Assembly (NCBI GenBank): GCA_003251635.1
Contig: QKEW01000011.1
Location: 39,411-103,410, forward strand
Direction of reading: 5' to 3'
Length of the DNA: 64,000 nt
Source: a bacterium
Lineage (GTDB): Bacteria > Patescibacteriota > Minisyncoccia > Moranbacterales > GWC2-37-73
Part shown: positions 21,724 to 58,835 of the stretch, one piece after another
How the letters are laid out: each line of letters begins with the position of its first letter
Numbering within the stretch: the stretch's first letter is position 1
Program-made: the position numbers and the translations under genes
The notes under the pieces: generated by a model
Seen by the model: the letters and a program-made list of their open reading frames with translations, nothing else
Database searches by the model: none
What the model was told of the DNA's origin: nothing

Positions 21724-22833
21724 ATGGAAATTGCGCAAATAAATACAGTGCCGGAGATAATCAATTTGATCAAAGTGCTTTTTACGGGACTCTTGGCTTT
21801 TGTGTTGGCTTTTTTGTTGACCCCAATTTGGACTCACTTGCTTTATAAGCACAAAATTGGAATCAAAATCAAGAAAACAGATGTGGATGGCAACAAATTG
21901 ACCTACGTTAACAAATTGCATGCCAAAAAAGAAGGAACTCCAACCATGGGCGGAGTGATTGTCTGGTTGTCAGTTTTTATTTTAGTTTTGGCTTCGCACT
22001 ATGTTTTTCCTTTGTTGGCCAACTTTTTTGATATCAGCTTTTTGGCTCGATTGGATTTTTTCTCCCGCTCCCAGGTTTATCTGCCACTTTTTGCTTTGGT
22101 GACAGCCGGAGTCTTGGGTTTTTTTGATGATTGGATGAGCGTGCGGGGTTGGGGCGCCAACAAGGGCGGTGGCATGCGTTTTGCTAAACGTTTTTGGTGG
22201 CTTTTTCTGATTGCAGCCGTGGGGGCTTGGTGGTTTTATTCAAAATTGGGTTGGGATCAAATTCACGTTCCGGCTGTGGGAGATTTTTCGATTGGCCTGT
22301 GGTATGTGCCGCTTTTTATTTTTGTGATTCTTTTCACGGCCATTTCTTCCAATGAAACTGATGGTCTGGATGGTCTCAATGGCGGCATTTTGATCATGGC
22401 TTTTTCGTCTTTTGCTTTGATTTCTTTTTTTCAAAACAAAATTGACTTGGCCGCTTTCTCGGCCGCAATTTCCGGAGCTTTACTGGCTTTTTTGTGGTTT
22501 AATATTTATCCAGCTCGATTTTTTATGGGGGATACTGGAGCTATGAGTTTGGGCACAACCTTGGGAGTAGTGGCTCTTTTGACCAACTCGGTGATTATCT
22601 TGTATATTGTTGTTTTTGTTTATGTTATGGAATCGGCAAGTGTGGTTTTACAACTGGGATCCAAGAAATTTTTAAAGAGAAAAATATTTTTGGCCGCTCC
22701 GCTTCATCATCATTTTGAAGCCAAGGGTTGGCCGGAGCCGAAGATCGTGATGCGGGCTTGGGTTTTCACGGCCATCACCGCTGCTATGGGAATTATTATT
22801 GGAATTTTAGGCATGGGCAAGATTAAGTTTTAG
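21724..22833 (+). CDS. mraY: Phospho-N-acetylmuramoyl-pentapeptide transferase
   Basis: GTPTMGGV, NETDGLDGL, DTGAMSLG and PLHHHFE conserved blocks. Polytopic membrane protein. Confidence 0.9.
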   Translation: MEIAQINTVPEIINLIKVLFTGLLAFVLAFLLTPIWTHLLYKHKIGIKIKKTDVDGNKLTYVNKLHAKKEGTPTMGGVIVWLSVFILVLASHYVFPLLANFFDISFLARLDFFSRSQVYLPLFALVTAGVLGFFDDWMSVRGWGANKGGGMRFAKRFWWLFLIAAVGAWWFYSKLGWDQIHVPAVGDFSIGLWYVPLFIFVILFTAISSNETDGLDGLNGGILIMAFSSFALISFFQNKIDLAAFSAAISGALLAFLWFNIYPARFFMGDTGAMSLGTTLGVVALLTNSVIILYIVVFVYVMESASVVLQLGSKKFLKRKIFLAAPLHHHFEAKGWPEPKIVMRAWVFTAITAAMGIIIGILGMGKIKF

Positions 22834-22864
22834 ATCATTATTTTTAGAGCGAAAAAAAGATGGG

Positions 22865-22900
22865 ACGTACTGACGAACGTACGTACGTTCGTCAGTACGT
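22865..22900. repeat. Perfect 36-bp palindrome ACGTACTGACGAACGTACGTACGTTCGTCAGTACGT (copy 1 of a GTAC/ACGT-rich palindromic element family)
   Basis: It is its own reverse complement. It lies between the mraY stop and the pgk RBS. Related copies sit at 47783-47826 and 58751-58786. Confidence 0.85.
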
Positions 22901-22925
22901 GAGTTTAATTCATAAGGATAAAAAT

Positions 22926-23960
22926 ATGAAAAAGATTCAAGAGGCGGATTTGGTTGGAAAAAAAGTTTTGGTACGAGCGGATTTCAATGTGGGAGTTGTG
23001 GATGGAAAAATTGCGGAAAAATTTAAACTGGAGGCTTGCAAAGAAACTGTTGAGCATTTACTTTCCCAAAGTGAAACCAAGGTGGCCTTGTGTTCTCATT
23101 TGGGTCGGCCAGAAGGACAATTTAATGAAAAATTTTCCTTGAAGCAATTGGCTAGTGAGTTGGAGAATATTTTAACCAAAAAAATTGTTTTTGTGCCGGA
23201 AATTTCAGTGGAAAAAATTCAAGCTGCTTTGGAGGACCTAAATGAAGGAGAAATTTTACTGTTGGAAAATGTGCGTTTTTATCCGGGCGAGGAAAAAAAC
23301 GATAGCGAATTTTCCCAGCAATTGGCTGGAGCTTTTGATGTTTTTGTTAACGAGGCTTTCAGTGTGTGTCACCGGGACCAATCTTCAGTGACTGGCGTGA
23401 CGAAATTTCTGCCCAGCTATGCGGGCTTTTGGCTGCAAAAAGAAGTGGAAAACTTGGATCGAGTTTTAGATAATCCCGCCAAGCCGGCCGTGGCGATCAT
23501 TGGCGGAGCTAAAATTGAAACCAAGCTGCCTTTGATTGAAAAATTCGAAAAAATTTATGATCAGGTTTTGGTGGGTGGCATGGTGGCTAACGAAGCCTTG
23601 GATCAGAAAAAAACTTTTTCCGACAAGGTTATTTTGCCGCAGGATTTCGAGGGTGAGCGTTTGGACATTGGACCAAAAACCTTGGAACAGTTCAAGCAGA
23701 TTGTTGCAACGGCTAAGACCATTGTTTGGAACGGTCCCTTGGGTAAGTTTGAAGAAAAACCTTTTGACCGAGCCACGCGGGAAATTTTGCAGATGGTAGC
23801 TGAAAGCCAAGCTTTCACTTTGGTTGGCGGCGGCGAGTCGGTACAGGTTTTGGAAGAAAATGGCTGGTTGGATAAAATCTCATTTGTCTCCACCGGCGGC
23901 GGCGCCATGCTGGAATACCTCAGCGGCAACCCCATGCCGGGGATTGAGGGGTTGAAATAA
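22926..23960 (+). CDS. pgk: Phosphoglycerate kinase (short form)
   Basis: VLVRADFNVG, SHLGRPEGQ, and the C-terminus GGGESVQVL...VSTGGGAMLEYLSG. RBS AAGGA lies 8 nt upstream of ATG 22926. The 22 codons from 22860 in the ORF track are a read-through of the palindrome. Confidence 0.85.
   Translation: MKKIQEADLVGKKVLVRADFNVGVVDGKIAEKFKLEACKETVEHLLSQSETKVALCSHLGRPEGQFNEKFSLKQLASELENILTKKIVFVPEISVEKIQAALEDLNEGEILLLENVRFYPGEEKNDSEFSQQLAGAFDVFVNEAFSVCHRDQSSVTGVTKFLPSYAGFWLQKEVENLDRVLDNPAKPAVAIIGGAKIETKLPLIEKFEKIYDQVLVGGMVANEALDQKKTFSDKVILPQDFEGERLDIGPKTLEQFKQIVATAKTIVWNGPLGKFEEKPFDRATREILQMVAESQAFTLVGGGESVQVLEENGWLDKISFVSTGGGAMLEYLSGNPMPGIEGLK
23898..23960 (+). repeat. Native pgk 3'-terminal 63 nt (copy A of a direct-repeat triplet). 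It contains the hairpin CAACCCC-N14-GGGGTTG.
   Basis: Near-identical copies occur at 24510-24542 (partial) and 25770-25832 (full length, including the TAA). Confidence 0.85.
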
Positions 23961-24023
23961 GGGATTGAGTTAATGAGAGTCTGTGTAATGTTAATTGTTT
24001 GAATTCATTTTAAGTACAATGAT

Positions 24024-24494
24024 ATGATTGAAAATAATCCATGGAAACCAGAAAATGGACCCGAGAGTCAGCAGAATGAAGAAAACGACAGAGAGAAGAA
24101 TGCTAAGAATAGGTTATTTGAAGGAAGTCTGGGTTTAGGTAGAAATGATCCAATGGCGCTAAAAACATCAAGCGAAAGCGCTTACTGGGTGACTGGTGAG
24201 TCGCAAATTCAAGATATTATTGAAAGTGGCTATATAAGACCGCCTGTTGGTAAATTAAAAGGTGGACACAAGGGAGAGGTTCATTGGTCAAGGGGAGGTG
24301 ATAAATTGTTTTATCGTGATAAAAGACCAGTGTTGGAAATTGATAGGGATAAAATTTTAAATAGGGAAATAGGTGCTTTTAGAATAAGCGATTTGAAAGC
24401 GATCTGGGTGTTTGACGAAGAGAAGGGCACCTATGAGGATAAATTAAATGAAATTTTAGCCAAAAGCAAAAAAACTGATGATTTGGCTGATTAA
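24024..24494 (+). CDS. Hypothetical protein (cargo gene 1 between pgk-end repeats A and B)
   Basis: 156-aa ORF with no recognisable motif. It is bracketed by copies of the pgk 3' end. Confidence 0.45.
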   Translation: MIENNPWKPENGPESQQNEENDREKNAKNRLFEGSLGLGRNDPMALKTSSESAYWVTGESQIQDIIESGYIRPPVGKLKGGHKGEVHWSRGGDKLFYRDKRPVLEIDRDKILNREIGAFRISDLKAIWVFDEEKGTYEDKLNEILAKSKKTDDLAD

Positions 24495-24509
24495 TTTTTA
24501 ATAATTTGA

Positions 24510-24542
24510 AGCGGCAACCTCATGCCGGGGATTGAGGGGTTG
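24510..24542 (+). repeat. Partial degenerate copy (B) of the pgk 3' end
   Basis: AGCGGCAACCTCATGCCGGGGATTGAGGGGTTG matches pgk 23925-23957 with one substitution (C to T). Confidence 0.8.
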
Positions 24543-24588
24543 GGGTAGGGAGAAAGTTCGTACAATAACGAGTTGTGCAAAATTTTGG

Positions 24589-24616
24589 TTGACAAACCAT
24601 ACTTTTATAGTATAAT
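24589..24616 (+). promoter_or_regulatory. Near-consensus sigma-70 promoter (TTGACA, 16-nt spacer, TATAAT) with a downstream inverted repeat TTTACAG-N5-CTGTAAA and a direct repeat TGTAAACTGTAAACT
   Basis: The -35 lies at 24589-24594 and the -10 at 24611-24616. The operator-like inverted repeat at 24620-24645 overlaps the predicted +1 and RBS region of the 24647 gene. Confidence 0.6.
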
Positions 24617-24646
24617 AGTTTACAGTTATCTGTAAACTGTAAACTA

Positions 24647-25624
24647 ATGAAAACATCTGAAAAAATCCTACAATATATAACCGAAAAAAAGCAAGTAACC
24701 GTGCATGAGTTGGTTGACTATTTGGAAATTAGCCGAATGGCGGTTTCCAAACAGCTCAGCAATCTTATATCTGAAGGAAAAATAAATAAAACCGGAAAGC
24801 CACCCAAAGTGTTTTATTTTATTGCTGCTGAAAAAGATGAGTTGGAAAAAGGCAGTATCAAGATTGACCCAAAAATAAAAAATATTATAGAAAAAAACTT
24901 TCTGCTTATAACTCCATTTGGCCAACGATTGGAAGGATTGGAAGGTTTTATTTATTGGTGTCGGAAAACCAATCAATCAATTGAAAAATCGGCCGGTGAA
25001 TATGCGGACACGTGGAAAAAATATGATAAATTTAAGAAAAGCGGTTTGATTGATGGAATGGAAAAATTCAAACAAACTTTCAAGACAATTTATTTGGACA
25101 AGGTTTTTTATTTGGATTTTTACAGTATTGAGCGGTTTGGAAAAACGAAACTTGGCCAACTTTTATTGTATGCCAAACAGAGTCAAAATCGCAAGCTAAT
25201 AAAAGAATTAACTCAAATAATAAAACCGCAGTTGGATCATTTGCTCAAAAAATTCAATATAGACGGGATTGGTTTTATTCCCCCGACGGTAAAGCGCGAA
25301 GTTCAATTTATGAAGGAATTGGAAAAAAATTTACACCCAGACTTAAAAAAAGTATCTATTGTGAAAGTCCAATCAGACATAATGGTTCCCCAAAAAACCC
25401 TGAACAAATTGAAGGATCGTGTTGAAAATGCCAAAAGAACGATTGTTGTTGATGAATCAAGAAATTTTGAAAATATCTTGTTGGTGGATGATGCGATCGG
25501 TTCAGGAGCGACTCTCAATGAAACGGCGGAAAAAATCAGAGCTAGGGGCATTTGCCGAGGAAAAATAATCGGGCTTTCAATAACGGGAAGTTTCAAGGGT
25601 TTTGATGTTATAAATGAAGTTTGA
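24647..25624 (+). CDS. Winged-HTH plus phosphoribosyltransferase (ComF/PRTase type I-like) fusion protein (cargo gene 2)
   Basis: N-terminal wHTH (VTVHELVDYLEISRMAVSKQLSNLISEGKI). C-terminal PRPP-binding motif ILLVDDAIGSGATLNETAEKIRARG. Confidence 0.65.
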   Translation: MKTSEKILQYITEKKQVTVHELVDYLEISRMAVSKQLSNLISEGKINKTGKPPKVFYFIAAEKDELEKGSIKIDPKIKNIIEKNFLLITPFGQRLEGLEGFIYWCRKTNQSIEKSAGEYADTWKKYDKFKKSGLIDGMEKFKQTFKTIYLDKVFYLDFYSIERFGKTKLGQLLLYAKQSQNRKLIKELTQIIKPQLDHLLKKFNIDGIGFIPPTVKREVQFMKELEKNLHPDLKKVSIVKVQSDIMVPQKTLNKLKDRVENAKRTIVVDESRNFENILLVDDAIGSGATLNETAEKIRARGICRGKIIGLSITGSFKGFDVINEV

Positions 25625-25769
25625 CCAGGTCCGAGTCCCTTCGAAGCTTACTTGGCGGTTTTGAAGAGGTGAGAATGGCTGAAATTTGGTGAAAATAAAA
25701 AGGGATTAGATATCTTTATCAATCGTAGTTGTGATATAATTCAAACATAGTTAGTTCTGCCTAGCTTGT

Positions 25770-25832
25770 GGCGGCGCCATGCTGGAGTACCTCAGCGGCA
25801 ATCAAATGCCGGGGATTGAGGGGTTGAAATAA
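25770..25832 (+). repeat. Full-length degenerate copy (C) of the pgk 3' end, including the stop codon
   Basis: In the pgk frame it translates to GGAMLEYLSGNQMPGIEGLK*, against native GGAMLEYLSGNPMPGIEGLK*. Confidence 0.85.
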
Positions 25833-25855
25833 TTTTGTTTAGCTTAAAAATAAAA

Positions 25856-26611
25856 ATGAATAAAAAAACAAAAATAATCAGTGTGGTCGTGGTTATGGTT
25901 CTGCTGTTAGCATCTTCCTTGTATTTTCTTTTTCTGACAAAAAATAAGGAAAATAAAAACGAGGAAAATGGTGTGGCTGAAGCTGAGGCAGTAAAAGTGA
26001 ATGAAGAAAATTTTTGTTTGAAGTTTAATGAAAAAGGAGTTGAATATGTTGATCAGGAAATCGAAGCTTTAGTGAGTAGATATGCAAGTGCCAATGGTTC
26101 AGTTATTTCAAAAAACGAAATCTGTGCTTCTTTGTTGGCTGGTCGTGATTTGGCCTCGGACCTTGGAGATGAAGAGTTTTATAGTAAAGTGTTTACAGGT
26201 GAACCTGAAATTGAAGAGGGGATTATAAATAAATTGGAAGTATATATTGGGAGAACCAGAGCCGAAGAGGTTACTGAAGAATTATTTAGAGAAGCCAATG
26301 ATAAAAATGAGGAGCTCTTACTTAAAACACAAATCATTATGACATCTCCATATGCATTATTGTGTATTAGGGACAAAGGGTTTCTCACGGAGCCAAAATC
26401 AGGAGATCCTATATGTTTAAATAAAGTGAATGCTGATGATGTCTGGCCGAAAATAGAAGAAGAATATGGAGCCCAGTGGGGCGGGTGTGATTTTGCTATA
26501 GATAAAAGCAACAATACTTTTCAATACTGCGCAAAGGATATAAAGAATGACATTCTTTATAAATGCACGGAGAGTGGATGTGAAGAGGTGGTTGATACGG
26601 AGGATTTTTAA
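25856..26611 (+). CDS. Hypothetical exported Cys-rich protein with a signal-anchor
   Basis: N-terminal TM (IISVVVVMVLLLASSLYFLFL), then an acidic domain with about 8 Cys. The track start at 25835 is a TTG; ATG 25856 is more likely. An extended -10 (TGATATAAT) sits at 25732-25740. Confidence 0.5.
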   Translation: MNKKTKIISVVVVMVLLLASSLYFLFLTKNKENKNEENGVAEAEAVKVNEENFCLKFNEKGVEYVDQEIEALVSRYASANGSVISKNEICASLLAGRDLASDLGDEEFYSKVFTGEPEIEEGIINKLEVYIGRTRAEEVTEELFREANDKNEELLLKTQIIMTSPYALLCIRDKGFLTEPKSGDPICLNKVNADDVWPKIEEEYGAQWGGCDFAIDKSNNTFQYCAKDIKNDILYKCTESGCEEVVDTEDF

Positions 26612-26720
26612 TACGTATTATAATCATTACATGGTTTATTGCGGGGTGTATATTTTTTTGACTTTCACCCCGATTCAAGCTACAATTGGGCCAAGATAAG
26701 CTTGAATTTAATCAGGAAAA

Positions 26721-28577
26721 ATGGAGAAAAAAGAATCCGGTGAGTTTGAAAAATACCGCCAGGAAGTTGAAAAAGAGGTAGCGGCGGTCAAGATAAAAAT
26801 CGAAAAAGCCAGAAAGGAGTCCATTGGAATCAAATGGGCTGATTATGTTTTGGAAAAAATTCGCCAAGAGATTAAGGATAGTCTTGGCAGTGATTTGACC
26901 TTGAAAGATGATTTGATTGAATTGGTTTTGCCGCCCGCCCATGTTAAAGACGCTGATCTGTCTTGGGCGATTTTTGAGCTGGCTAAAAAAAATCAGGAAA
27001 ATCCAGCCAAGCTGGCAGAAAAAATTGCGCAAAAATTGAATGATTCCGAAGGTGATTTGATTGGAGAGGTTCAAACGGCCGGAGCTTTTGTTAATCTGAA
27101 ATTGCAAGTTGATAAGGTTTATTCTCAAATAATTTTGCAAATTTCCCGGTTAGGTGAAGACTATGGTCAAAGCGACTTGAATCAGGGAAAAGTGGCGGTG
27201 ATTGATTATTCCTCACCCAACATTGCCAAGCCGATCGGGGTGGGTCATTTGCGCTCCACTATTATTGGGCAAGCATTGGCTAATCTCTATCGTCGAACCG
27301 GCTATCAGGTTGTTTGTGATAATCACTTGGGAGATTGGGGCACCCAATTCGGCTCATTGATTTGGGCCTATCAAAATTGGGGCGACGAGGAAAAAATCGT
27401 TCAAAATCCAATTGAGGAATTGAAGAATCTCTATGTTAGGTTTCACGGTGAGTCTCAAGAAAAACCGGAAATTAAGGATGAAGCGCGCGAACTTTTTGCC
27501 CGATTGGAAAATGGTGATGCTAAAATGCTGGAACTTTGGAAACGTTTTCGAGATCTGAGCCTTCAGGATTTTGGTCGGGTCTATGAAAAATTGGGAGTGA
27601 AATTTGATTTGAATATTGGCGAAAGTTATTTTGTTGATCAGGCGGATGGATTGGTGGAGGAGTGTTTGAAAAAAGGCCTTTGCCAGAAAGCCCAAGACAG
27701 TGATGCGATTGTGGTTGAAGACTTGGACGGGTTGCCTTCATTTTTGCTGCGAAAAAATGATGGAACGAGCTTGTATTTATCACGTGACTTGGCGACCTTG
27801 ATTTTTCGTATCCAAAATTTTCAGCCCGAATCAATTCTCTATGTGGTTGGCAGCGAACAAGATTTAAATTTCAAACAATTTTTTGCTTTGGCTAAAAAGG
27901 CTGGTTATCTGTCAGACGGAGTTGAAGCTAAGCATATTAGCTTTGGTATGGTGACGGTGAATGGCAAGAAAATGTCGACTCGTCGGGGAACTTTGATTGA
28001 GTTGGATAAATTGATGGCTGAGTCGATTCAAAAATCGCGAGAGATTTTGCAAACCAAAGGCGAAGAGACTGACCCGGTTGAGTTGGAAAAAACAGCTGAA
28101 GTGGTTGGAATCGGGGCGATTATTTATAATGATCTGCGTCAATCTCGAGTTAAAAACATTTCTTTTGATTGGAAAAGGATGCTGGATCTGGAAGGAGCCA
28201 GTGCGGTTTATTTGCAATATTCCTATGTTCGAATTCAGTCGATTTTACGCAAGGCAACTGATGGATTTTCAGGCGATTTTGAGCAAAAGATTGAAAGGGC
28301 TAATTTTGAAAAGAGGTGCGAATTTGATTTGGCTCGCAAGCTGATGTTTTTTCCTGAAATTATCGCTAGGGCGCAAAAGACAGACGGTCCGCATCATTTG
28401 TGCGGTTATCTGGAGGAGTTGGCCATTTTGTTTAACAGTTTTTATAATGAAGTTCCGATTTTGAAAACTGAAGATGAGATTTTGCGCAGTTCTCGCTTGA
28501 GTTTGAGTTGGAGCGTGAGCAAGGTTTTGAAAATTGGTCTAAATTTGCTTAGTATTGATTTGCCGGAAAGGATGTAA
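26721..28577 (+). CDS. argS: Arginine--tRNA ligase
   Basis: Class I HIGH-region analogue PNIAKPIGVGHLRSTIIG, the MSTRRG (KMSKS-equivalent) motif, and a C-terminal DALR anticodon-binding domain. 618 aa. Confidence 0.85.
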   Translation: MEKKESGEFEKYRQEVEKEVAAVKIKIEKARKESIGIKWADYVLEKIRQEIKDSLGSDLTLKDDLIELVLPPAHVKDADLSWAIFELAKKNQENPAKLAEKIAQKLNDSEGDLIGEVQTAGAFVNLKLQVDKVYSQIILQISRLGEDYGQSDLNQGKVAVIDYSSPNIAKPIGVGHLRSTIIGQALANLYRRTGYQVVCDNHLGDWGTQFGSLIWAYQNWGDEEKIVQNPIEELKNLYVRFHGESQEKPEIKDEARELFARLENGDAKMLELWKRFRDLSLQDFGRVYEKLGVKFDLNIGESYFVDQADGLVEECLKKGLCQKAQDSDAIVVEDLDGLPSFLLRKNDGTSLYLSRDLATLIFRIQNFQPESILYVVGSEQDLNFKQFFALAKKAGYLSDGVEAKHISFGMVTVNGKKMSTRRGTLIELDKLMAESIQKSREILQTKGEETDPVELEKTAEVVGIGAIIYNDLRQSRVKNISFDWKRMLDLEGASAVYLQYSYVRIQSILRKATDGFSGDFEQKIERANFEKRCEFDLARKLMFFPEIIARAQKTDGPHHLCGYLEELAILFNSFYNEVPILKTEDEILRSSRLSLSWSVSKVLKIGLNLLSIDLPERM

Positions 28578-28617
28578 TTTTTCCACAATTATTGTGATTT
28601 AAATTAGTTTTGAAGAT

Positions 28618-29799
28618 ATGAAAAAAAAGAAACAGCGAAAAAAAGATTTGCTGGCCACCTTTTTTCTAATAGGCTGCGCTTTGTTTAGCTTGGGGGCCTA
28701 TTATTTTTTGGCGAGTGAAAAAAAGACTAATATTTTAGACGGTCGCGAAGTTGAAATTGAAAATATTGAACAAAGCGGATTGGGAATAATGGATGAAATT
28801 GAAGAGGAAATTCTGGAAAACGATGCTGAAAATTTACAAGTAATTGAATTGGATGAAGAAAGTGAAACGGAGACGGAAAATCCAGCAATAGAAGTGGGAG
28901 GATTGGAGGTGGATGAATCTTTGATTGGAGATAATGTTCTTTTTCCGGCCAGGGCTTTCTCGGTCCCTAAAGTCAAAAGAAATGATCCAGATGAAATTCG
29001 AATCGGTTTTATTACTGATTTGCATGTTCGCAGTGATGCGGATGAGATTGGCAATCGTTATTTTAAGCAAAGATTTACTGATCGAATCAACTATTTTGTG
29101 GAAAAAATGAATGATGATTTTGTGCCCAATTTTATTTTGGTTGATGGGGATTTGATTGAAGGCACCAATGTTTCTCCGGACAAGGGTTTTGTGGAGTTGT
29201 CTTTAATAAAGCAACTTTTTGATCAAACTATTTTGTCAAAATATTGGGTGATTGGTAATCATGATTTGCGCTCGGTAAACAAAGAACAATTCAAAAAAGC
29301 TTTGGATATTGATTATACTAGTAAAGCTTTTGAAGTTGGAAATTATAAGATTATAATTTTGGATAGTAATTTTGATGAAAATGACGAAGATATTGTTCCG
29401 GGTGAATATTATACGCGCGGGCATCTGTCCCAATATCAGATTAATTTTCTCGAGAATGAGTCGAAAAATACCGACAAGCGAGTTTTGGTTTTTGTTCATC
29501 ATCCAATACTGTGGGATATGAACGGCTTGTCTAATAACAAGTTTCCAGATAATACACTGAAAGTTCGGGAAATTTTTTCTGAAAATAGCGTCCTGGGAGT
29601 TTTCTCTGGGCATATCGAAGATTTATTTTTTGGTAAAATGGACGGAGTGAACTATTTCGTTTCACCTGGAATTGAGAAAAATGAGAAATACCAAGGAACT
29701 TTCTGTGAAATTACCATCAAAAAAAGCAAAATAACCATTGAAATGACTTATCTGAAAAAAGGTAAATATAAAACTGTGAAAATTGAAAGAGAGGAATAA
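28618..29799 (+). CDS. Membrane-anchored calcineurin-like metallophosphoesterase
   Basis: N-terminal TM. Metal-binding motifs GFITDLH, VDGDLIEG, VIGNHD, VFVHHP and GHIE. Confidence 0.75.
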   Translation: MKKKKQRKKDLLATFFLIGCALFSLGAYYFLASEKKTNILDGREVEIENIEQSGLGIMDEIEEEILENDAENLQVIELDEESETETENPAIEVGGLEVDESLIGDNVLFPARAFSVPKVKRNDPDEIRIGFITDLHVRSDADEIGNRYFKQRFTDRINYFVEKMNDDFVPNFILVDGDLIEGTNVSPDKGFVELSLIKQLFDQTILSKYWVIGNHDLRSVNKEQFKKALDIDYTSKAFEVGNYKIIILDSNFDENDEDIVPGEYYTRGHLSQYQINFLENESKNTDKRVLVFVHHPILWDMNGLSNNKFPDNTLKVREIFSENSVLGVFSGHIEDLFFGKMDGVNYFVSPGIEKNEKYQGTFCEITIKKSKITIEMTYLKKGKYKTVKIEREE

Positions 29800-29822
29800 A
29801 TCTTTTTTCTGGCCTTTTATTC

Positions 29823-29850
29823 TTGACATTTTCAAAAGACCTGTTAATAT
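29823..29850 (+). promoter_or_regulatory. Strong sigma-70 promoter (TTGACA, 16 nt, TGtTAATAT extended -10) driving the ncRNA candidate
   Basis: The -35 lies at 29823-29828. The TGn at 29842-29843 plus TAATAT at 29845-29850 form an extended -10. Confidence 0.6.
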
Positions 29851-29857
29851 AGTTGCA

Positions 29858-30210
29858 GATCTTTTTCATAACGAGGTCGTGGCCTTTGGTCACGGTTTTA
29901 TCTAGTGATCGGGGGCTCTTCGGGTAGGGGGGATTGCTAGATAAAATGGAATTGGGTGTGTCTAGGTTTATTTTTTAGCTCATCCAATTCTACCTCGGCC
30001 GTTTAAAGTCTTGCTTGCGCGCTATTACTTCCAAACCGTTCGGTTGTTCGATTAACAACACCTGCTAGCGGAATTGGTCTGTTAGAGGGGTGTGCGAAGT
30101 GTGCGCGCAAGCAAGTTAATGAAAAAACAAACCTTGATAGGTCAACATGGGGTTCATGATTTGAACCCGTAATGTTATCGTTGAAGCTATCAAGGTTTTT
30201 ATTTTTGCTT
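29858..30210 (+). ncRNA. Structured ncRNA candidate of about 350 nt, family unassigned. It is GC-rich and multi-domain, bounded by its own promoter and an intrinsic terminator.
   Basis: Nested long-range helices: CGAGGT/ACCTCG (29872-77 with 29993-98), ATCTAG/CTAGAT, a 13-bp helix CTTGCTTGCGCGC/GCGCGCAAGCAAG (30001-13 with 30093-105), and an 11-bp terminal helix AACCTTGATAG/CTATCAAGGTT (30140-50 with 30188-98) followed by TTTTATTTTT. A C-UUCG-G tetraloop is present. No long ORF in sense. GC is well above the window average. Strand is inferred from the promoter and terminator. Confidence 0.5.
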
Positions 30211-30254
30211 GAAACCCTTGGGACCTTTTGAGGATTTTGAAAAAATGATATAAT

Positions 30255-31382
30255 TTGAACATGAAAATCGGAATTGATGCGCGTTTTTTCGGACCCATTG
30301 GCAAGGGTCTGGGACGCTATGCGCAAAAACTAATTGAAAATCTGGAGAAAGTTGATCAGGAAAATGACTATGTCATTTTTTTGCGCAAGGAAAATTTTGC
30401 CGACTATGTGCCAAAATCACCAAACTTTAAGAAGGTCTTAGCTGATTATCGCTGGTATGGTTTTGGTGAACAACTTTTTTTTCCAATTTTGCTCTATCGG
30501 CAACGTCTGGATGTCATGCATTTTCCGCATTTCAATGTCCCGCTTTTGTATCGCAAAAAAATAATAGTGACCATTCATGATCTGATTTTGTTGCATTTCC
30601 CAACTTTGCGAGGCACAACCTTGAGCCCGCTTTGGTATAAGATAAAATTTTTAGCCTACAAGCTAACGATCGGATCTGCTTTGCGTCGAGCCCGAAAAAT
30701 TATTGCAGTTTCCCAGTCGACTAAAAAAGACATTTTGAAAAATTATTCGATAAGTCCGGAAAAAATTGATGTGACTCATGAGGCGGTTGATCCTCTTTGC
30801 TATTTTTCGCTAGAGTCGACAGATAAAGTTTTGGAAAGATATGGAATAATTGGCCCCTATCTTCTCTATGTTGGCAATGCTTATCCGCATAAAAATTTGG
30901 AAAAATTGATCGAGGTTTTTGCTCGGTTGAGAAAAAATAAATCTGAAATGAATTTAGTTTTGGTTGGAAAGGAAGATTTTTTTTATCGACGACTCAAGGA
31001 GTTGGTCGAGAAAAATGAAATCAAGGGGGTGATTTTTCCTGGGTTTATTTCAGATGAGGATTTGAGTTCGGTTTATCGCCGGTGTGAAGCCTATGTTTTT
31101 CCTTCTTTGTATGAGGGGTTTGGTTTGCCGCCGTTGGAAGCAATGCTTTTGGGGGTGCCAGTTTTGAGCAGCGATCATTTTTGTATGAAAGAGGTTTTAG
31201 GCGAAAGTGCACTTTTTTGTGACGCAAAAAATAACGAATCATTATTGAAAGGCCTGGAAAGAATAATAGATGATCAAGCTCTGCGAAAGAATTTGATTGA
31301 AAAAGGTTATCTCCAGAGTCTTTTATATAGTTGGCAACAGATGGCTGGGCAAACGCAAAAAAATTACCAGGAAATAAAATAA
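30255..31382 (+). CDS. Glycosyltransferase, family 4
   Basis: YVFPSLYEGFGLPPLEAMLLGVPVLSSD (EX7E motif). The track start is a TTG; ATG 30261 (MKIGIDARFF) is more likely. Confidence 0.8.
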   Translation: MNMKIGIDARFFGPIGKGLGRYAQKLIENLEKVDQENDYVIFLRKENFADYVPKSPNFKKVLADYRWYGFGEQLFFPILLYRQRLDVMHFPHFNVPLLYRKKIIVTIHDLILLHFPTLRGTTLSPLWYKIKFLAYKLTIGSALRRARKIIAVSQSTKKDILKNYSISPEKIDVTHEAVDPLCYFSLESTDKVLERYGIIGPYLLYVGNAYPHKNLEKLIEVFARLRKNKSEMNLVLVGKEDFFYRRLKELVEKNEIKGVIFPGFISDEDLSSVYRRCEAYVFPSLYEGFGLPPLEAMLLGVPVLSSDHFCMKEVLGESALFCDAKNNESLLKGLERIIDDQALRKNLIEKGYLQSLLYSWQQMAGQTQKNYQEIK

Positions 31383-31395
31383 AAACAGAAAGATT

Positions 31396-33969: not shown

Positions 33970-33975
33970 ATAAAT

Positions 33976-35619
33976 ATGATCAGTAAATTAGCGAAAAACA
34001 ATTTTTTTAATGGCCGAGCTATCGGATCAATTGTGCAAGCTGCCATGATAATTTCTTTGATGGGAATAGCCAGTCGAGTCCTGGGTCTTTTTCGTGATCG
34101 AATCTTGGCTTCAACTTTTGGCGCTGGAGACATTTTGGATGCTTACTACGCTGCTTTTCGGGTTCCTGATTTGATTTATAGTCTTTTGATTTCCGGAGCT
34201 TTGAGCGCAGCTTTTATTCCGGTTTTTACTCAATTGATTTCTCATGGAAAAGAAAAGAAAGCTTGGGATTTAGCCAGTGGTATTTTGAATATCCAAATTG
34301 TTTTTATGGGTCTTTTGGCTTTGATTTTGTCCTTGTTTGCACCTTTTCTGATGAAATTGATCACACCTGGTTTTGAGGGTCCGAAAATGGATCTGACCGT
34401 TAACTTAACCAGAATCATGTTTTTAAGTCCGATAATTTTGGGGATTAGCGGAATTTTTGGCGGAATTCTAGTTTCGATGAAGAAATTTTTTGTCTATTCT
34501 TTGGCGCCGATAATGTATAATTTAGGAATAATTTTCGGGGCGGTTTTTTTGGTTAAGATTTTGGGTCCAGCTGGTTTGGCCTGGGGTGTGGTTTTAGGGG
34601 CTGTTCTTCATATGCTAATTCAATATCCAGCGGTAAAATTTTCCGGTTTCAATTTGAGGGTGAATTTTTCCCAGATTTTTCACAGCAAAGAAGCTTTGCA
34701 AATTTTCCACTTGATGATTCCAAGAGTGTTGGGGGTAGCCATAAACCAGGTTAATTTTTTGGTTATTACGATTTTTGCCTCAACTTTGGCGGCGGGCAGT
34801 TTGGCTATTTTTAATTTTGCTAACAATATCCAAAGCGTACCCCTGGGTCTTTTTGGAATATCTTTTGCCATTGCAGCTTTTCCAACTTTAAGTACCCATT
34901 ATGCCAAAAATGAGGAGAAAGAATTTATCAATGTTTTTTCTAAAACTTTGCGCCAAATTCTTTTTTTTGTGATTCCTTTCAGTGTTTTGATTTATGTGCT
35001 TAGAGCTCAAATTGTTCGGGTTATTTTGGGTAGTGGAAATTTTGACTGGGAAGATACGATTTTAACTTTCAACACGCTGGGAATTTTGGCCTTGAGTTTA
35101 TTTGCCCAATCCTTGATTCCGCTTTTAGCTCGGGCTTTTTATGCTATTTGCAATACCAAGACACCTTTTTATGTGGCGCTTTTTTCCGAAGCGATTAACA
35201 TTGCTCTGGTTGTTTGGCTTATCGGTGAGTATAAAATTTTGGGTCTGGCCATAGCTTTTTCAGTCTCCAGTTTGGTCAACATGCTTTTGTTGGTTGTTTT
35301 GTTGGGTAAAAAATTTCATTACTTAAAAGAAATTAATAGCAAACAAACAATTTTAAAGATAATTTTGGCTTCTTTGCTGGCTGGCTTGGCGGCTCAAATT
35401 GGAAAAATTTTAGTTGGGACGCGAGGCGAGCTGGATACTTTTTTGGAAATCCTAGTTCAGCTGATTTTGGCTGGAGGACTAGGTTTTGGAATCTTTGCTA
35501 TAAGTTGCTATTTTTTAAAGGTGGAAGAATTTTTCAGTTTTGCCAATTCGATCGGTCGAAAAATTTTTCGAAGTAAAAAATACATAAATGAAAGCACAAC
35601 GGATGTTACGGGACTTTAG
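33976..35619 (+). CDS. murJ: Lipid II flippase MurJ (MviN)
   Basis: FGAGDILDAYYAAFRVPDLIYSLLISGALSAAFIPVF is the MurJ N-terminal signature. About 14 TM helices. Confidence 0.85.
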   Translation: MISKLAKNNFFNGRAIGSIVQAAMIISLMGIASRVLGLFRDRILASTFGAGDILDAYYAAFRVPDLIYSLLISGALSAAFIPVFTQLISHGKEKKAWDLASGILNIQIVFMGLLALILSLFAPFLMKLITPGFEGPKMDLTVNLTRIMFLSPIILGISGIFGGILVSMKKFFVYSLAPIMYNLGIIFGAVFLVKILGPAGLAWGVVLGAVLHMLIQYPAVKFSGFNLRVNFSQIFHSKEALQIFHLMIPRVLGVAINQVNFLVITIFASTLAAGSLAIFNFANNIQSVPLGLFGISFAIAAFPTLSTHYAKNEEKEFINVFSKTLRQILFFVIPFSVLIYVLRAQIVRVILGSGNFDWEDTILTFNTLGILALSLFAQSLIPLLARAFYAICNTKTPFYVALFSEAINIALVVWLIGEYKILGLAIAFSVSSLVNMLLLVVLLGKKFHYLKEINSKQTILKIILASLLAGLAAQIGKILVGTRGELDTFLEILVQLILAGGLGFGIFAISCYFLKVEEFFSFANSIGRKIFRSKKYINESTTDVTGL

Positions 35620-35756
35620 GGATTTTTTGCGGATAATCTTTTAGCTATTTCATGCTTTCTTTTTTGTTTTTTTAGTTTTTTGAATTTTGTGCTAAAATAA
35701 TATTGAAAGTCAGCTCGATTTTTGTCTGATTTGAAATAAAAAGTAAAAGGAAAAGC

Positions 35757-41516: not shown

Positions 41517-41530
41517 ATTTAGAATGTTTT

Positions 41531-43186: not shown

Positions 43187-43208
43187 ATATATTGTTGAAA
43201 AACGAAAA

Positions 43209-44450: not shown

Positions 44451-44481
44451 TATAATTTGGATATATTCATAAAAATACAAA

Positions 44482-45714: not shown

Positions 45715-45747
45715 TTTTTCAAAAAAATAACAAATACAAAAAATAAA

Positions 45748-47724: not shown

Positions 47725-47752
47725 AAACCGCTTTTTTGAAGCGGTTTTTATT
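47725..47752 (+). terminator. Intrinsic terminator after the GH15 gene
   Basis: AAACCGCTT-tttt-GAAGCGGTTT followed by TTATTG. Confidence 0.75.
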
Positions 47753-47782
47753 GTCTAAAATAATAAAATAGGCTAAACTGAA

Positions 47783-47826
47783 GTCAGTACGCACGTACTG
47801 ACGAACGTACGTACGTTCGTACTGAC
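47783..47826. repeat. GTAC/ACGT-rich compound palindrome (copy 2): GTCAGTACGCACGTACTGACGAACGTACGTACGTTCGTACTGAC
   Basis: It shares the 28-nt core ACGTACTGACGAACGTACGTACGTTCGT with copy 1. Its outer arms GTCAGTACG and CGTACTGAC are reverse complements of each other. Confidence 0.8.
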
Positions 47827-47860
47827 AAAAATAATTATTTTTATTGGCAGTCTCTCGAAA

Positions 47861-48052
47861 GTGGGATTGGATAAAATCAAAAACAAAATGCAAAAATTTG
47901 AAAGAAAGCTGGGAAAAACTTCCAGTCATAGCTATAACATAGTGATTCCCAAGGAAATTGTTGAAAAATATGGTTGGAAAGAGAAACAAAAAATTTCCAT
48001 TGTGGATAAGGGTCATGGCAAGATTGAGATTAGGGACTGGAAAAAACGTTGA
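47861..48052 (+). CDS. Small SpoVT/AbrB-like (looped-hinge helix) DNA-binding protein; orphan antitoxin-like
   Basis: 63 aa. YNIVIPKEIVEKYGWKEKQKISI resembles the AbrB/MazE swapped-hairpin motif. No adjacent toxin gene. Confidence 0.45.
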   Translation: MGLDKIKNKMQKFERKLGKTSSHSYNIVIPKEIVEKYGWKEKQKISIVDKGHGKIEIRDWKKR

Positions 48053-48096
48053 CAAATTAATTGCCTCAAGGTGCTTTAATGGTTATGATCTTTCAT

Positions 48097-48136
48097 AAAA
48101 CGGACTGTCGTTACAACGATAGCCCGTTTTGTTTTG
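48097..48136. terminator. Bidirectional terminator between convergent genes
   Basis: AAAACGG...CCGTTTT stem enclosing an inner imperfect hairpin. It has T-runs on both strands and lies between 47861..48052 (+) and 48156..50006 (-). Confidence 0.55.
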
Positions 48137-48155
48137 GAAGAAATTTTGTTTTTTA

Positions 48156-50006: not shown

Positions 50007-50022
50007 AATCTTTTATTATATT

Positions 50023-51591: not shown

Positions 51592-51758
51592 AGAAAATTA
51601 GTTCACAAACAACCGGGAGGATTTCCGGATGAAGGAAAATTTATTTTTGTTTTTTTGATGATTTGATTATAGCACTTTTTAGATTTTTTTGACAGAAATT
51701 TTTTGGGGATTTGAAAGGAGATGTGGTATAATTATTAAAAAGTTTTAATCAATTTGAA

Positions 51759-54674: not shown

Positions 54675-54698
54675 GTTTATAATTAATCAAGAAATAAA

Positions 54699-55016: not shown

Positions 55017-55034
55017 TAATTAAGACAAAAGATT

Positions 55035-58599: not shown

Positions 58600-58750
58600 A
58601 AAGGAGGATTGGTGTGACATATGAAAGGATAGACTTAATTTTAGCCCCTGGCCCAGGCAAGATGAGTAAAGTTTGTATCGCAAGCGAAATAAAGCGATTC
58701 GGGAAAAACCCGGTCGCTTTTTTTATTTTAATTTTAGATTGATCTTGGAG

Positions 58751-58786
58751 CACGTACGTACGTCCGTCAGTACGTTCGTACGTACG
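58751..58786. repeat. GTAC/ACGT-rich palindromic element (copy 3): CACGTACGTACGTCCGTCAGTACGTTCGTACGTACG
   Basis: It shares a 20-mer with copy 1 at 19 of 20 positions (ACGTACGT[T/C]CGTCAGTACGT) and is flanked by self-complementary CGTACGTACG units. Confidence 0.75.
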
Positions 58787-58810
58787 AAAATAAAATCATT
58801 AAATTAAAAA

Positions 58811-58835
58811 ATCGCCACAGCGGCGATTTCTGGCT
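58811..58835 (-). terminator. Intrinsic terminator for the minus-strand 766-aa gene
   Basis: AATCGCC-acagc-GGCGATT hairpin. On the minus strand it is followed by TTTTTTAATTT. Confidence 0.6.

What the first reader, a model, noticed from the sequence alone, without database searches (positions are those of the whole stretch)
22865..22900. Family of GTAC/ACGT-rich palindromic elements in three intergenic regions (copy 1 is a perfect 36-bp palindrome upstream of pgk)
ACGTACTGACGAACGTACGTACGTTCGTCAGTACGT is an exact reverse-complement palindrome lying between mraY and pgk. Related compound palindromes occur at 47783-47826 and 58751-58786. These are built from the same GTCAGTAC, CGTACG and ACGT units. 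Copy 2 shares a 28-nt core with copy 1. Copy 3 shares a 20-mer with one mismatch. In this AT-rich genome such GC-containing palindromes, stacked with RsaI (GTAC), BsiWI (CGTACG) and SnaBI-like sites, stand out. All three lie in 5' or intergenic positions: before pgk, before an AbrB-like gene, and between convergent genes. Candidate roles are a miniature REP or MITE-like mobile palindrome, an RNA stability hairpin, or the operator of a dimeric regulator.
Basis: seen in the sequence. Interest (0 to 1): 0.6.

Follow-up and report, generated by a model that had tools for sequence, protein, structure and literature searches.

The report
Short GTAC-based palindromic repeat family
Three closely related 36-44 bp hairpin-forming DNA repeats, built from GTAC-like four-base units, sit in non-coding gaps of an uncultured Moranbacteria (CPR) genome; they are real and lineage-specific and most resemble the small "selfish" extragenic palindromes (REP-like repeats) of other bacteria, but no function or mobilising enzyme could be shown.

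Summary
A perfect 36-nt palindrome lies at 22865-22900, with related compound palindromes at 47783-47826 and 58751-58786. The shared 20-mer, the octamer GTCAGTAC and every CGTACG site of the window occur only there, far above chance. I found no further or decayed copy in 83 kb of this genome.

All three copies keep a 4-nt register, as degenerate (GTAC)n arrays. Each reads as a stretch of one periodic master sequence, which is copy 1 repeated head to tail. They differ from it only by one or two substitutions and one indel of 12 or 8 nt.

The host is a Moranbacteria (CPR) bacterium. Copy 1 is a lineage-specific insertion: the conserved mraY-pgk junction is 21-37 nt in the closest relatives and 92 nt here. 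About 190 kb of related DNA holds nothing similar. Copies 2 and 3 lie just beyond canonical terminators, and copy 3 lies between convergent terminators.

My best reading, at moderate confidence, is a young REP/REPIN-like extragenic palindromic repeat family. It was copied as DNA and diversified by slippage in the 4-nt register. The agent is unidentified, since no transposase is present in the 83 kb.

An operator for the adjacent AbrB/MazE-like gene, or a selected RNA hairpin, remains possible but fits copy 3 poorly. The interest is modest.

The parts
22865..22900 (.). Copy 1: a perfect 36-nt palindrome, made of the 18-nt unit ACGTACTGACGAACGTAC followed by its reverse complement. In 4-nt units it reads GTAC TGAC GAAC GTAC GTAC GTTC GTCA GTAC.
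   Evidence: The DNA hairpin is -19 kcal/mol, z = -6.7. TRF gives period 4 with 9 copies.
47783..47826 (.). Copy 2: a 44-nt compound palindrome. Positions 47793-47820 equal the first 28 nt of copy 1. It carries three GTCAGTAC/GTACTGAC octamers. It matches the head-to-tail repeat of copy 1 at 43 of 44 positions with one 12-nt deletion.
   Evidence: The DNA hairpin is -13.9 kcal/mol, z = -4.2.
58751..58786 (.). Copy 3: a 36-nt imperfect palindrome. Positions 58752-58775 equal copy 1 positions 13-36 with one mismatch. It matches the head-to-tail repeat of copy 1 at 34 of 36 positions with one 8-nt deletion.
   Evidence: The DNA hairpin is -13.6 kcal/mol, z = -3.7.
21724..22833 (+). The mraY-type glycosyltransferase gene upstream of copy 1.
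   Evidence: It hits PF00953. Its synteny with pgk is conserved in all relatives.
22926..23960 (+). pgk. The real start is at 22926, with an AAGGA ribosome-binding site at 22914-22918. The upstream in-frame ATG at 22860 reads through copy 1.
   Evidence: Relatives start with MKKIQ/MKRIQ and are 344-349 aa long.
22834..22925 (+). The mraY-pgk spacer. It is 92 nt here and 21-37 nt in the closest relatives, so it holds the inserted copy 1.
   Evidence: L085-L091.
47725..47752 (+). The canonical intrinsic terminator of the GH15 gene, about 30 nt upstream of copy 2.
47888..48052 (+). A 54-aa SpoVT/AbrB (MazE-type) small DNA-binding protein gene, 61 nt downstream of copy 2. The alternative GTG start is at 47861.
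   Evidence: It hits PF04014 and TIGR01439 at 24.3 bits, below that model's cut-off. The ORF is listed.
58694..58724 (+). The canonical intrinsic terminator downstream of the 133-aa gene, about 26 nt upstream of copy 3.
   Evidence: Read directly in the sequence and partly called by the scan.
58800..58827 (-). The intrinsic terminator of the convergent 766-aa gene: ATCGCC-GCTGT-GGCGAT followed by TTTTTT on the minus strand. Its stem ends 25 nt from copy 3.
   Evidence: Read directly in the sequence. The scan did not list it.

Best explanation
The three sites are copies of one short extragenic palindromic repeat that is specific to this lineage. It is comparable to REP/REPIN elements.

**Anatomy**
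- The basic unit is an 18-mer, GTACGTTCGTCAGTACGT.
- Two units in inverted orientation give the 36-nt perfect hairpin of copy 1.
- Copies 2 and 3 are stretches of the same periodic sequence, changed by one or two substitutions and one indel that is a multiple of 4 nt.

**Shown**
- The copies have a common origin.
- All copies lie outside genes.
- Copy 1 is an insertion into an otherwise tight and conserved mraY-pgk junction.
- All copies can form hairpins.
- The family is absent from relatives.

**Inferred**
- The element was copied as DNA into selectively tolerated gaps: an operon spacer, the stretch after a terminator, and the stretch between convergent terminators.
- The copying agent was either a hairpin-recognising transposase encoded elsewhere in the genome or recombination and template switching.
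- The copies then diversified by slipped-strand and hairpin template switching in the self-complementary GTAC register.
- The family is young, because the copies are nearly identical and no decayed relics were found.
- Any effect on neighbouring genes is probably incidental. One example is the stem-loop that accounts for most of a predicted -36 kcal/mol fold of the mraY-pgk spacer, 25 nt before the pgk start codon.
For: **Family and common origin**
- The copies share 28 of 28 identical bases (copy 1 with copy 2) and 23 of 24 (copy 1 with copy 3).
- Copy 2 matches the head-to-tail repeat of copy 1 at 43 of 44 positions with a 12-nt gap. Copy 3 matches at 34 of 36 with an 8-nt gap.
- Period 4 is detected by TRF only at these loci.

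**Placement**
- Coding density is 94%. Intergenic stretches of at least 40 nt make up 5.4% of the window, yet all three copies lie in them. Random placement would give about 1.6e-4.

**Insertion**
- The gene order ...ScpA-ScpB-S11 peptidase-mraY-pgk... is conserved in L085-L091, with spacers of 21-37 nt against 92 nt here.
- No GTAC array occurs in about 190 kb of Moranbacteria/Parcubacteria loci or in the other 1.2 Mb fetched.
- The 20-mer has 0 hits in 185,579 species-representative genomes. An 18-mer core of it has 0 hits in IMG/VR.

**Structure and position**
- The hairpins are significant against shuffles.
- Distances to promoters and start codons differ between copies, and copy 3 lies between two terminators.
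- No relics appear even at 5 mismatches to the 18-mer in 83 kb.

**Definition used**
- REPINs are two inverted REPs that form a hairpin and are mobilised in trans by a single-copy RAYT (PMC3337134 abstract).
Against: - No Y1/HUH transposase, RAYT, IS element or recombinase appears in the 83 kb examined.
- Only three copies are known, and the genome-wide copy number could not be tested.
- There is no target-site duplication, no conserved flank and no GTAG head as in classical REPs.
- No close relative (above 73% PGK identity) exists in the databases, so presence/absence polymorphism at the strain level could not be tested.
- The copies lack defined common ends. They differ in which stretch of the periodic sequence they hold, which is unusual for a transposed unit.
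- High sequence identity could also reflect selection for a binding site.
Confidence: 0.45

Rival explanations
1. Array-type operator. The GTAC-register boxes (8-bp units such as GTCAGTAC, GAACGTAC and GTACGTTC) would be bound cooperatively by a small dimeric or tetrameric regulator. The most obvious candidate is the AbrB/MazE-family protein encoded 61 nt downstream of copy 2. The regulator would control its own gene and pgk.
For: - Copy 2 lies directly upstream of the PF04014 gene. Copy 1 lies 25 nt upstream of the pgk start.
- Copy 2 is a compound palindrome whose middle can pair with either flank. This recalls the 'alternating palindrome' of the E. coli mazEF promoter (Marianovsky 2001, cited in PMC5888573).
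- Array operators such as the MetJ metboxes tolerate variable box numbers (from my own knowledge).
- The octamer is strongly over-represented and confined to these sites.
Against: - Copy 3 lies between two convergent terminators, with no start codon or predicted promoter to control.
- The number, orientation and spacing of octamers differ at every site: 24 bp inverted in copy 1, 12 and 24 bp in copy 2, and a single octamer in copy 3.
- Identity of 28 of 28 bases is far higher than is usual between operators of one regulon.
- No such site stands upstream of pgk in any relative.
- The AbrB-like gene lies in a region that is not syntenic with the closest relative.
Confidence: 0.15
2. Selected RNA element. 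The hairpins would act in transcripts, for example as an intercistronic stabiliser or processing site that uncouples pgk from mraY expression, as a 5'-UTR hairpin of the abrB-like mRNA, or as back-up terminators.
For: - The predicted RNA structures are very stable. The copy 1 region folds at -35.9 kcal/mol with z = -7.3.
- Copy 1 lies inside a conserved co-oriented gene string with no other terminator.
- The lenient terminator scan flags copy 1 on both strands.
- A weak promoter-like site at 47736-47764 would place copy 2 at the 5' end of a transcript.
Against: - Copies 2 and 3 follow canonical terminators, so they are probably little transcribed.
- No proper U-tract follows the whole-element hairpins of copies 2 and 3.
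- No Rfam family matches.
- The element is absent in relatives, whose mraY-pgk junction works without it.
Confidence: 0.12
3. Split integration site. A copy-1-like palindrome would have been the attachment target of a 10.9-kb element at 47821-58751. That element carries the AbrB-like gene, two PMT_2 genes, a 971-aa protein, DUF5663, a VirD4/TraD-like ATPase and others. Copies 2 and 3 would then be the attL and attR halves, sharing a 16-nt core.
For: - Joining 47793-47820 to 58768-58775 across the shared core ACGTACGTACGT(T/C)CGT rebuilds copy 1 exactly, and both truncated sides face the segment.
- Copy 2 lies at a synteny break relative to the closest GH15 locus.
- The 822-aa ATPase matches a phage-associated family over its full length (phrog_5156, 5e-87) and weakly matches conjugative coupling proteins.
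- This genome shows other att-like duplications, at the pgk 3' end.
Against: - No integrase or recombinase is detectable in the segment.
- Because the element is a palindrome, the orientation coincidence alone has a chance of about 1 in 4.
- The family octamer GTACTGAC straddles the inner junction of copy 2, and both copies carry extra family-like units on their outer sides.
- The G+C content of the segment (0.397) does not differ from its surroundings.
- No relatives were found in IMG/VR.
Confidence: 0.12
4. Independent local growth of (GTAC)n tetranucleotide microsatellites. Their palindromic character would be a trivial result of the self-complementary unit, and no copying between loci would be involved.
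For: - Period 4 runs throughout, and all indels are multiples of 4.
- The hairpin of copy 3 rests almost entirely on plain GTAC runs.
- An unrelated metagenome contig, L001, shows an ACGT/ACGG microsatellite with the same 20-mer.
Against: - The same non-GTAC variant units appear in the same order over 28 nt (copies 1 and 2) and 24 nt (copies 1 and 3), which independent decay would not produce.
- No shorter or simpler GTAC runs occur anywhere else in 83 kb.
- GTAC is the rarest palindromic tetramer of the window.
Confidence: 0.08
5. Sequencing, assembly or deposition artefact, such as synthetic filler or a chimeric junction.
For: Obviously artificial ACGTACGT.../TGCATGCA/ACTGACTG filler does exist in some public records, for example the phage record MN218775.2.
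Against: - The elements appear identically in an independent assembly of the raw reads (Logan, SRR7216773), which is seen in two samples.
- That assembly breaks at copy 1 exactly as a real perfect palindrome longer than k = 31 requires.
- All three lie cleanly between intact genes and terminators.
Confidence: 0.02

Closest known systems
REP / REPIN elements (repetitive extragenic palindromes mobilised by RAYT transposases; BIME mosaics in enterobacteria)
   Same: - They are short (about 20-40 nt) imperfect or perfect palindromes.
- Two units in inverted orientation form one hairpin.
- They are strictly extragenic, and often lie after terminators, between convergent genes or in operon spacers.
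- Units occur in alternating orientation in mosaic arrangements.
- The family is lineage-specific.
   Different: - No RAYT gene was found in 83 kb.
- There is no GTAG head.
- Only three copies are known.
- The unit is built from a 4-nt self-complementary register.
- The copies differ in which stretch of a periodic sequence they hold, and do not share defined ends.
- REPIN-RAYT systems are described mainly in Proteobacteria. One full-text search found no paper describing REP elements in CPR bacteria.
The mazEF promoter 'alternating palindrome', and array operators of ribbon-helix-helix or swapped-hairpin (AbrB/MazE/MraZ) regulators
   Same: - Copy 2 is a compound palindrome whose middle part can pair with either flank.
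- It lies directly upstream of a MazE/AbrB-family gene.
- It consists of repeated short boxes in a fixed register.
   Different: - No toxin gene follows.
- The same sequence also lies between convergent terminators and inside an operon spacer.
- Identity between the sites is far higher than is usual among operators.
- Binding has not been tested.
Tetranucleotide microsatellites (contingency-locus repeats)
   Same: - The period is 4.
- Length changes come in multiples of 4 nt.
   Different: - The arrays are degenerate, with at most 3 perfect units.
- They lie in non-coding DNA with no evident phase-variable gene.
- The copies share an ordered pattern of variant units, which indicates common descent.
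Core attachment sites of tyrosine recombinases (dif, loxP-type arm-spacer-arm sites)
   Same: - Copy 1 can be read as 15-nt inverted arms around the 6-bp centre TACGTA.
- Copies 2 and 3 each keep one arm plus the centre, and they flank a 10.9-kb segment.
   Different: - No recombinase gene was found.
- A fully symmetric centre would give the site no direction.
- The support is weak, because the orientation coincidence has a chance of about 1 in 4.

Membership tests
REP/REPIN-RAYT | A short palindromic unit, with two inverted units forming one hairpin | tested here: met
   An 18-nt unit plus its reverse complement gives the 36-nt perfect palindrome. The hairpins are -13.6 to -19 kcal/mol as DNA, with z from -3.7 to -6.7.
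REP/REPIN-RAYT | Extragenic location | tested here: met
   All three copies lie in the 5.4% of the window that is intergenic.
REP/REPIN-RAYT | Tens to hundreds of copies per genome | not testable with these tools
   Only 83 kb of the genome could be reached, and it holds 3 copies and no relics. The source contig of 123 kb and the rest of the genome could not be fetched.
REP/REPIN-RAYT | A cognate single-copy RAYT (Y1/HUH transposase) gene, usually flanked by REPs | tested here: inconclusive
   No gene called in the 83 kb has a Y1_Tnp or other transposase domain. The remainder of the genome was not seen.
REP/REPIN-RAYT | A conserved GTAG tetranucleotide at the foot of the hairpin (classical REPs; from my own knowledge) | tested here: not met
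   The elements start and end with ACGT/GTAC units and contain no GTAG.
MITE | Terminal inverted repeats flanked by a target-site duplication, with a length of 50-500 bp | tested here: not met
   The elements are 36-44 bp. The flanks GGG|GAG, GAA|AAA and AGC|AAA show no duplication, and the copies share no flank.
Intrinsic terminator | A G+C-rich hairpin followed directly by a U-tract, at the end of a transcription unit | tested here: inconclusive
   Copy 1 passes a lenient scan on both strands, with the weak tails GAGTTTAATT and CCCATCTTTT. The whole-element hairpins of copies 2 and 3 do not pass. Each of those two copies lies next to a canonical terminator that already ends the neighbouring gene.
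Operator of an AbrB/MazE-type regulator | Specific binding by the regulator, and a position overlapping a promoter it controls | not testable with these tools
   Only copy 2 lies upstream of the regulator gene. Copy 3 has no promoter context, and the octamer arrangement differs at each site. Binding needs an experiment.
Tetranucleotide microsatellite | Head-to-tail repeats of one 4-nt unit with high purity | tested here: inconclusive
   TRF calls period 4 with 8.8-9 copies, but only 68-80% matches. At most three perfect GTAC units are adjacent.
Known RNA families (Rfam 15) | A score at or above the family gathering threshold | tested here: not met
   There were no matches at gathering score in the window. 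The permissive search gave only generic hairpin hits far below threshold.

The most novel reading that the evidence does not exclude
The palindrome would be a functional DNA site, not junk. In this reading it is the attachment or target site of an integrative element in a CPR bacterium. Copy 1 would be an empty site. Copies 2 and 3 would be the two halves of an occupied site, flanking a 10.9-kb island that carries a VirD4/TraD-like ATPase and the AbrB-like regulator. Precise excision would rebuild the perfect 36-nt palindrome. A related alternative is that the family is the first REPIN-like self-propagating repeat described in the Candidate Phyla Radiation.
Probability: 0.15. Interest if true: 0.55.

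Novelty: new variant of a known kind. Interest (0 to 1): 0.3.

Why it matters
- CPR/Patescibacteria genomes are tiny and densely packed, and are generally thought to be poor in repeats and mobile DNA. A young, self-copying palindromic repeat in a Moranbacteria genome would show that REP-like intragenomic replicators, or their mobilising enzymes, also exist there.
- Such a repeat would provide a marker for strain typing.
- It has practical effects on assembly and annotation. The perfect palindrome breaks k-mer assemblies. It also misleads gene callers into a 22-residue false N-terminal extension of PGK (P0001).
- If the split-site reading were right, it would identify an integration target for mobile islands in CPR bacteria.
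- With only three copies in the 83 kb that could be reached, and no agent or function shown, the finding is a modest curiosity for now.

Tried and rejected
**External searches for the element**
- The exact 20-mer (with Y at the variable base) gave 0 hits in GTDB species-representative genomes.
- In JGI metagenomes it gave 2 hits. One is a eukaryote-like ACGT/ACGG microsatellite. The other is a GC-rich contig with its own GTAC-rich structure. About one to two chance hits are expected in that collection (my own estimate), so these two hits are no evidence that the family occurs elsewhere.
- An 18-mer core of the motif gave 0 hits in IMG/VR.
- BLAST of the element against plasmids and phages gave only chance hits. 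It also found artificial ACGT/TGCA/ACTG filler in three E. coli phage records. This is irrelevant, apart from prompting the artefact check.
- I used the translated palindrome peptides as a word search against 5.8 billion proteins. It returned only TYVR-repeat ORFs from microsatellites. The E-value ceiling of 10 is too strict for 12-aa matches, so the result is uninformative.

**Reaching more of the genome**
- Extension beyond the window gave 9.8 kb upstream and 9.5 kb downstream with no further copy. Two other look-ups failed on start-codon differences.
- Look-ups with the short PGK form and with P0001 found no record.

**Alternative identities checked and dropped**
- Canonical parS was not found above chance, so the elements do not accompany recognisable parS sites.
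- LexA/Cheo box: the centre reads CGAAC-N8-GTTCG, not N4. Rejected by eye.
- Sigma-54, CIRCE, Rex and cre motifs show no resemblance.

**Other tests**
- The orthologous locus for copy 2 could not be compared. In the closest relative GH15 is followed by a FecR-like gene, not abrB, so synteny is broken there.
- A search for a recombinase or transposase in and around the elements with Pfam, PHROGs and NCBIfam found none.
- The 822-aa ATPase has no close relatives in IMG/VR.
- Literature searches found nothing on REP-like repeats in CPR bacteria, on the run accession, or on the decamer CGTACGTACG.
- My recollection that d(CGTACGTACG) crystallises as Z-DNA could not be verified and is not used as evidence.

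Full report
**1. Observation**

The sequence at 22865-22900 is ACGTACTGACGAACGTACGTACGTTCGTCAGTACGT, and it is its own reverse complement. The related elements are at 47783-47826 and 58751-58786.

These sites stand far above chance.
- The 20-mer ACGTACGTTCGTCAGTACGT at up to three mismatches occurs only at these loci. It gave four matches at three loci, against none in 100 shuffles.
- The octamer GTCAGTAC occurs six times, all inside the elements, against 0.18 expected.
- All eight CGTACG sites of the window are inside the elements.
- So are 14 of 40 GTAC sites and 4 of 7 TACGTA sites.
- A perfect 36-nt palindrome is expected about once per 10^6 windows of this size (simple probability).

**2. 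Anatomy**

All three elements keep one 4-nt register.
- Copy 1: GTAC TGAC GAAC GTAC GTAC GTTC GTCA GTAC.
- Copy 2: GTCA GTAC GCAC GTAC TGAC GAAC GTAC GTAC GTTC GTAC TGAC.
- Copy 3: GCAC GTAC GTAC GTCC GTCA GTAC GTTC GTAC GTAC.

Tandem Repeats Finder independently calls period 4, with 8.8-9 copies and 68-80% matches, only at these three places in the window. A score against (GTAC)n gives 26-28 of 32 for the copies, and the background maximum in 83 kb is 21.

The variant units come in reverse-complement pairs: TGAC with GTCA, GAAC with GTTC, and GGAC with GTCC.

Copy 1 is an 18-nt unit followed by its reverse complement. Aligned to a head-to-tail repeat of copy 1, copy 2 matches at 43 of 44 positions with one 12-nt gap. 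Copy 3 matches at 34 of 36 with one 8-nt gap. The copies therefore share descent. They are different stretches of one periodic sequence, and their indels are multiples of four.

Each copy folds into a hairpin spanning the whole element. As DNA the energies are -19, -13.9 and -13.6 kcal/mol, with z-scores of -6.7, -4.2 and -3.7. The RNA folds are correspondingly stable. The hairpin of copy 3 rests mostly on plain GTAC runs, which is a trivial result of the self-complementary unit. The hairpins of copies 1 and 2 also use the variant units.

**3. Reality of the sequence**

Logan contigs assembled from the run SRR7216773 carry copies 2 and 3 identically. They break at copy 1. The left contig ends with the k-mer 22864-22894 and the right contig starts with 22871-22901. 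A k=31 de Bruijn graph must behave this way at a true perfect palindrome longer than k.

Public phage records with obviously typed-in ACGT/TGCA/ACTG filler came up in BLAST. They prompted this check but are unrelated to the window.

**4. Organism and context**

PGK and its neighbours place the window in Candidatus Moranbacteria (Patescibacteria/CPR). The closest PGK is 73% identical, and the source is a 123,301-bp contig held by NCBI and JGI.

Coding density is 94%. Intergenic stretches of at least 40 nt add up to 3,437 nt, or 5.4% of the window, and all three copies lie in them.

- **Copy 1** lies in the mraY-pgk spacer. The real pgk start is 22926, which has an AAGGA ribosome-binding site and aligns with the N-termini of relatives. 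The upstream ATG at 22860, used in public gene calls (P0001, 366 aa), reads through the palindrome.
- **Copy 2** lies about 30 nt after the canonical terminator of a GH15 gene. It is 61 nt before a 54-aa SpoVT/AbrB (PF04014) gene.
- **Copy 3** lies between the terminators of two convergent genes.

No transposase, RAYT or recombinase domain appears in any gene of the window or of the 19 kb added at its ends. Rfam gives nothing.

**5. Comparative evidence**

In seven loci from the three closest lineages, the gene string aspS-MFS-scpA-scpB-S11 peptidase-mraY-pgk is conserved. There the mraY-pgk spacer is 21-37 nt, against 92 nt in the window. Copy 1 is therefore a lineage-specific insertion into a tight junction.

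None of about 190 kb of Moranbacteria/Parcubacteria DNA, nor the other loci fetched, holds a GTAC array or the octamer in clusters.

The 20-mer has no hit in 185,579 representative genomes. An 18-mer core of it has none in IMG/VR. The 20-mer has two hits in JGI metagenomes, which about equals the chance expectation.

The locus orthologous to copy 2 could not be compared. In the closest relative (GH15 66% identical) the glycogen gene cluster is conserved, but a FecR-like gene follows it. Copy 2 therefore lies at a synteny break.

Within the 83 kb of this genome that could be stitched together there are only these three copies. No decayed relics appear, even at five mismatches to the 18-mer.

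**6. Interpretation**

These features describe a young family of short extragenic palindromic repeats of the REP/REPIN kind:
- near-identity between copies, 28 of 28 and 23 of 24 bases;
- strictly extragenic and otherwise unrelated positions;
- proven insertion at one site;
- a hairpin made of two inverted units;
- absence from relatives.

REPINs are defined as two REPs in inverted orientation that form a hairpin and are mobilised by a RAYT (PMC3337134). Membership in the REP-RAYT family cannot be claimed. No RAYT was seen, the classical GTAG head is absent, the copy number is unknown, and the copies lack common ends.

I therefore describe it as "works like a REP-like repeat". In my reading it was copied as DNA by an unidentified agent and later diversified by slippage or hairpin template switching in the 4-nt register. 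My confidence is about 0.45.

**7. Rivals**

- **Operator for the adjacent AbrB/MazE-type protein.** This is attractive for copy 2, which is a compound palindrome like the mazEF "alternating palindrome" (Marianovsky 2001, cited in PMC5888573). It is conceivable for copy 1. It does not explain copy 3 between two terminators, the different octamer geometry at each site, the very high identity, or the absence from relatives.
- **Selected RNA hairpin.** This is plausible for copy 1 only, because copies 2 and 3 lie behind canonical terminators.
- **Independent microsatellite growth.** This is contradicted by the shared ordered pattern of variant units.
- **Split attachment site (a more novel reading).** Joining the left part of copy 2 (47793-47820) to the right part of copy 3 (58768-58775) across a shared 16-nt core rebuilds copy 1 exactly. 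The truncated sides of both copies face the 10.9-kb segment between them. That segment encodes a VirD4/TraD-like ATPase matching phrog_5156 over its full length. However, no recombinase is present. The orientation coincidence has a chance of about one in four because the element is a palindrome. A family octamer also straddles the inner junction. I give this reading about 0.12-0.15.

**8. Verdict**

The element is a new variant of a known kind, namely short extragenic palindromic repeats, in a phylum where one full-text search found none described. Only three copies are known, and no agent or function has been shown. I score the interest at 0.3.

Two computations could not be run here and would decide the matter. 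One is a whole-genome copy count together with a transposase search. The other is a read-level search for empty or occupied sites.

Noticed in passing
window 23898-23960, 24508-24548, 25770-25832: The last 63 nt of pgk, including its stop codon, are repeated directly at 25770-25832 (94% identity). About 40 nt of them are also repeated at 24508-24548. This looks like att-type duplication from two small islands inserted in tandem at the pgk 3' end. One island carries a 156-aa ORF with no family hit. The other carries a 325-aa HTH_11 + PRTase-CE protein behind a strong TTGACA-17-TATAAT promoter and an inverted repeat. Relatives have pgk followed directly by a 197-aa gene and enolase.
   Followed up: partly
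window 22860-22925: Public gene calls (P0001, 366 aa; NCBI and JGI) start PGK at the ATG at 22860 and translate the palindrome as MGRTDERTYVRQYVSLIHKDKN. Relatives are 344-349 aa long and start at the residue that matches 22926, which has a ribosome-binding site. The longer call is probably a wrong start caused by the stop-free palindrome.
   Followed up: yes
L003 end (window 22894) and L004 record start (window 22871): The Logan k=31 assembly of SRR7216773 breaks exactly at the perfect palindrome of copy 1. It runs straight through the imperfect copies 2 and 3. Perfect palindromes longer than k therefore fragment such assemblies.
   Followed up: yes
L002 1573-1640 (JGI contig Ga0209542_10140421): A GC-rich, unrelated contig carries GTACGTACGTCCGTCAGTACGT, which is identical to 22 nt of copy 3. 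A second ACGTACGTCAGTACGT follows 30 nt later. The two flank the palindrome TATACGCGCGTATA. The structure lies after a terminator and upstream of a short thrS gene. It may be chance or a wider GTAC-array phenomenon.
   Followed up: partly
window 47827-58750: The 10.9-kb segment between copies 2 and 3 encodes an AbrB-like protein, two PMT_2 glycosyltransferases, a 971-aa protein with no family hit, DUF5663, a 144-aa protein, and an 822-aa DUF8128/VirD4-TraD-like ATPase. The ATPase matches phrog_5156 over its full length (5e-87). The segment begins at a synteny break relative to the closest GH15 locus.
   Followed up: partly
window 24000-35700 and 41500-47700: Compared with the closest relatives (pgk-197aa-eno-pfkB-pilM-633aa-infA-rpsM...), the window has about 11 kb of extra genes between pgk and eno. 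These are the HTH-PRTase gene, argS, a metallophosphoesterase, GT4, DUF4012 and murJ. A glycogen gene cluster follows the 692-aa gene where relatives have the infA-rpoA ribosomal cluster.
   Followed up: no
window 61952-63079: An RmuC-family gene lies 3 kb from copy 3. In E. coli, RmuC limits inversions at short inverted repeats (from my own knowledge). There is no evidence of a link to the palindromes.
   Followed up: no
L005 2880-2990 and L006 9885-9995: In two more distant Moranbacteria/Parcubacteria genomes (PGK 64% identical) the mraY-pgk spacer is also enlarged, to about 110 nt. The extra sequence is an unrelated AT-rich stretch with ATATAACA/TGTTATAT inverted repeats. This junction may be a recurrent place for small insertions.
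   Followed up: partly
MN218775.2 (L095) 6365-6412 and 35655-35690; also MN518893.2 and MN518894.2: Three deposited E. coli phage genomes contain runs such as ACGTACGT...TGCATGCATGCA and ACTGACTGACTGACGTACGT.... These look like artificial filler and overlap annotated CDS ends. It appears to be a problem of record quality.
   Followed up: partly
whole window: GTAC is the rarest palindromic tetranucleotide, with 40 occurrences, 26 of them outside the elements. About 210 would be expected from base composition. GTAC is similarly scarce in related genomes. Trinucleotide frequencies account for it (Markov expectation 38.7), so specific restriction avoidance is not shown.
   Followed up: partly
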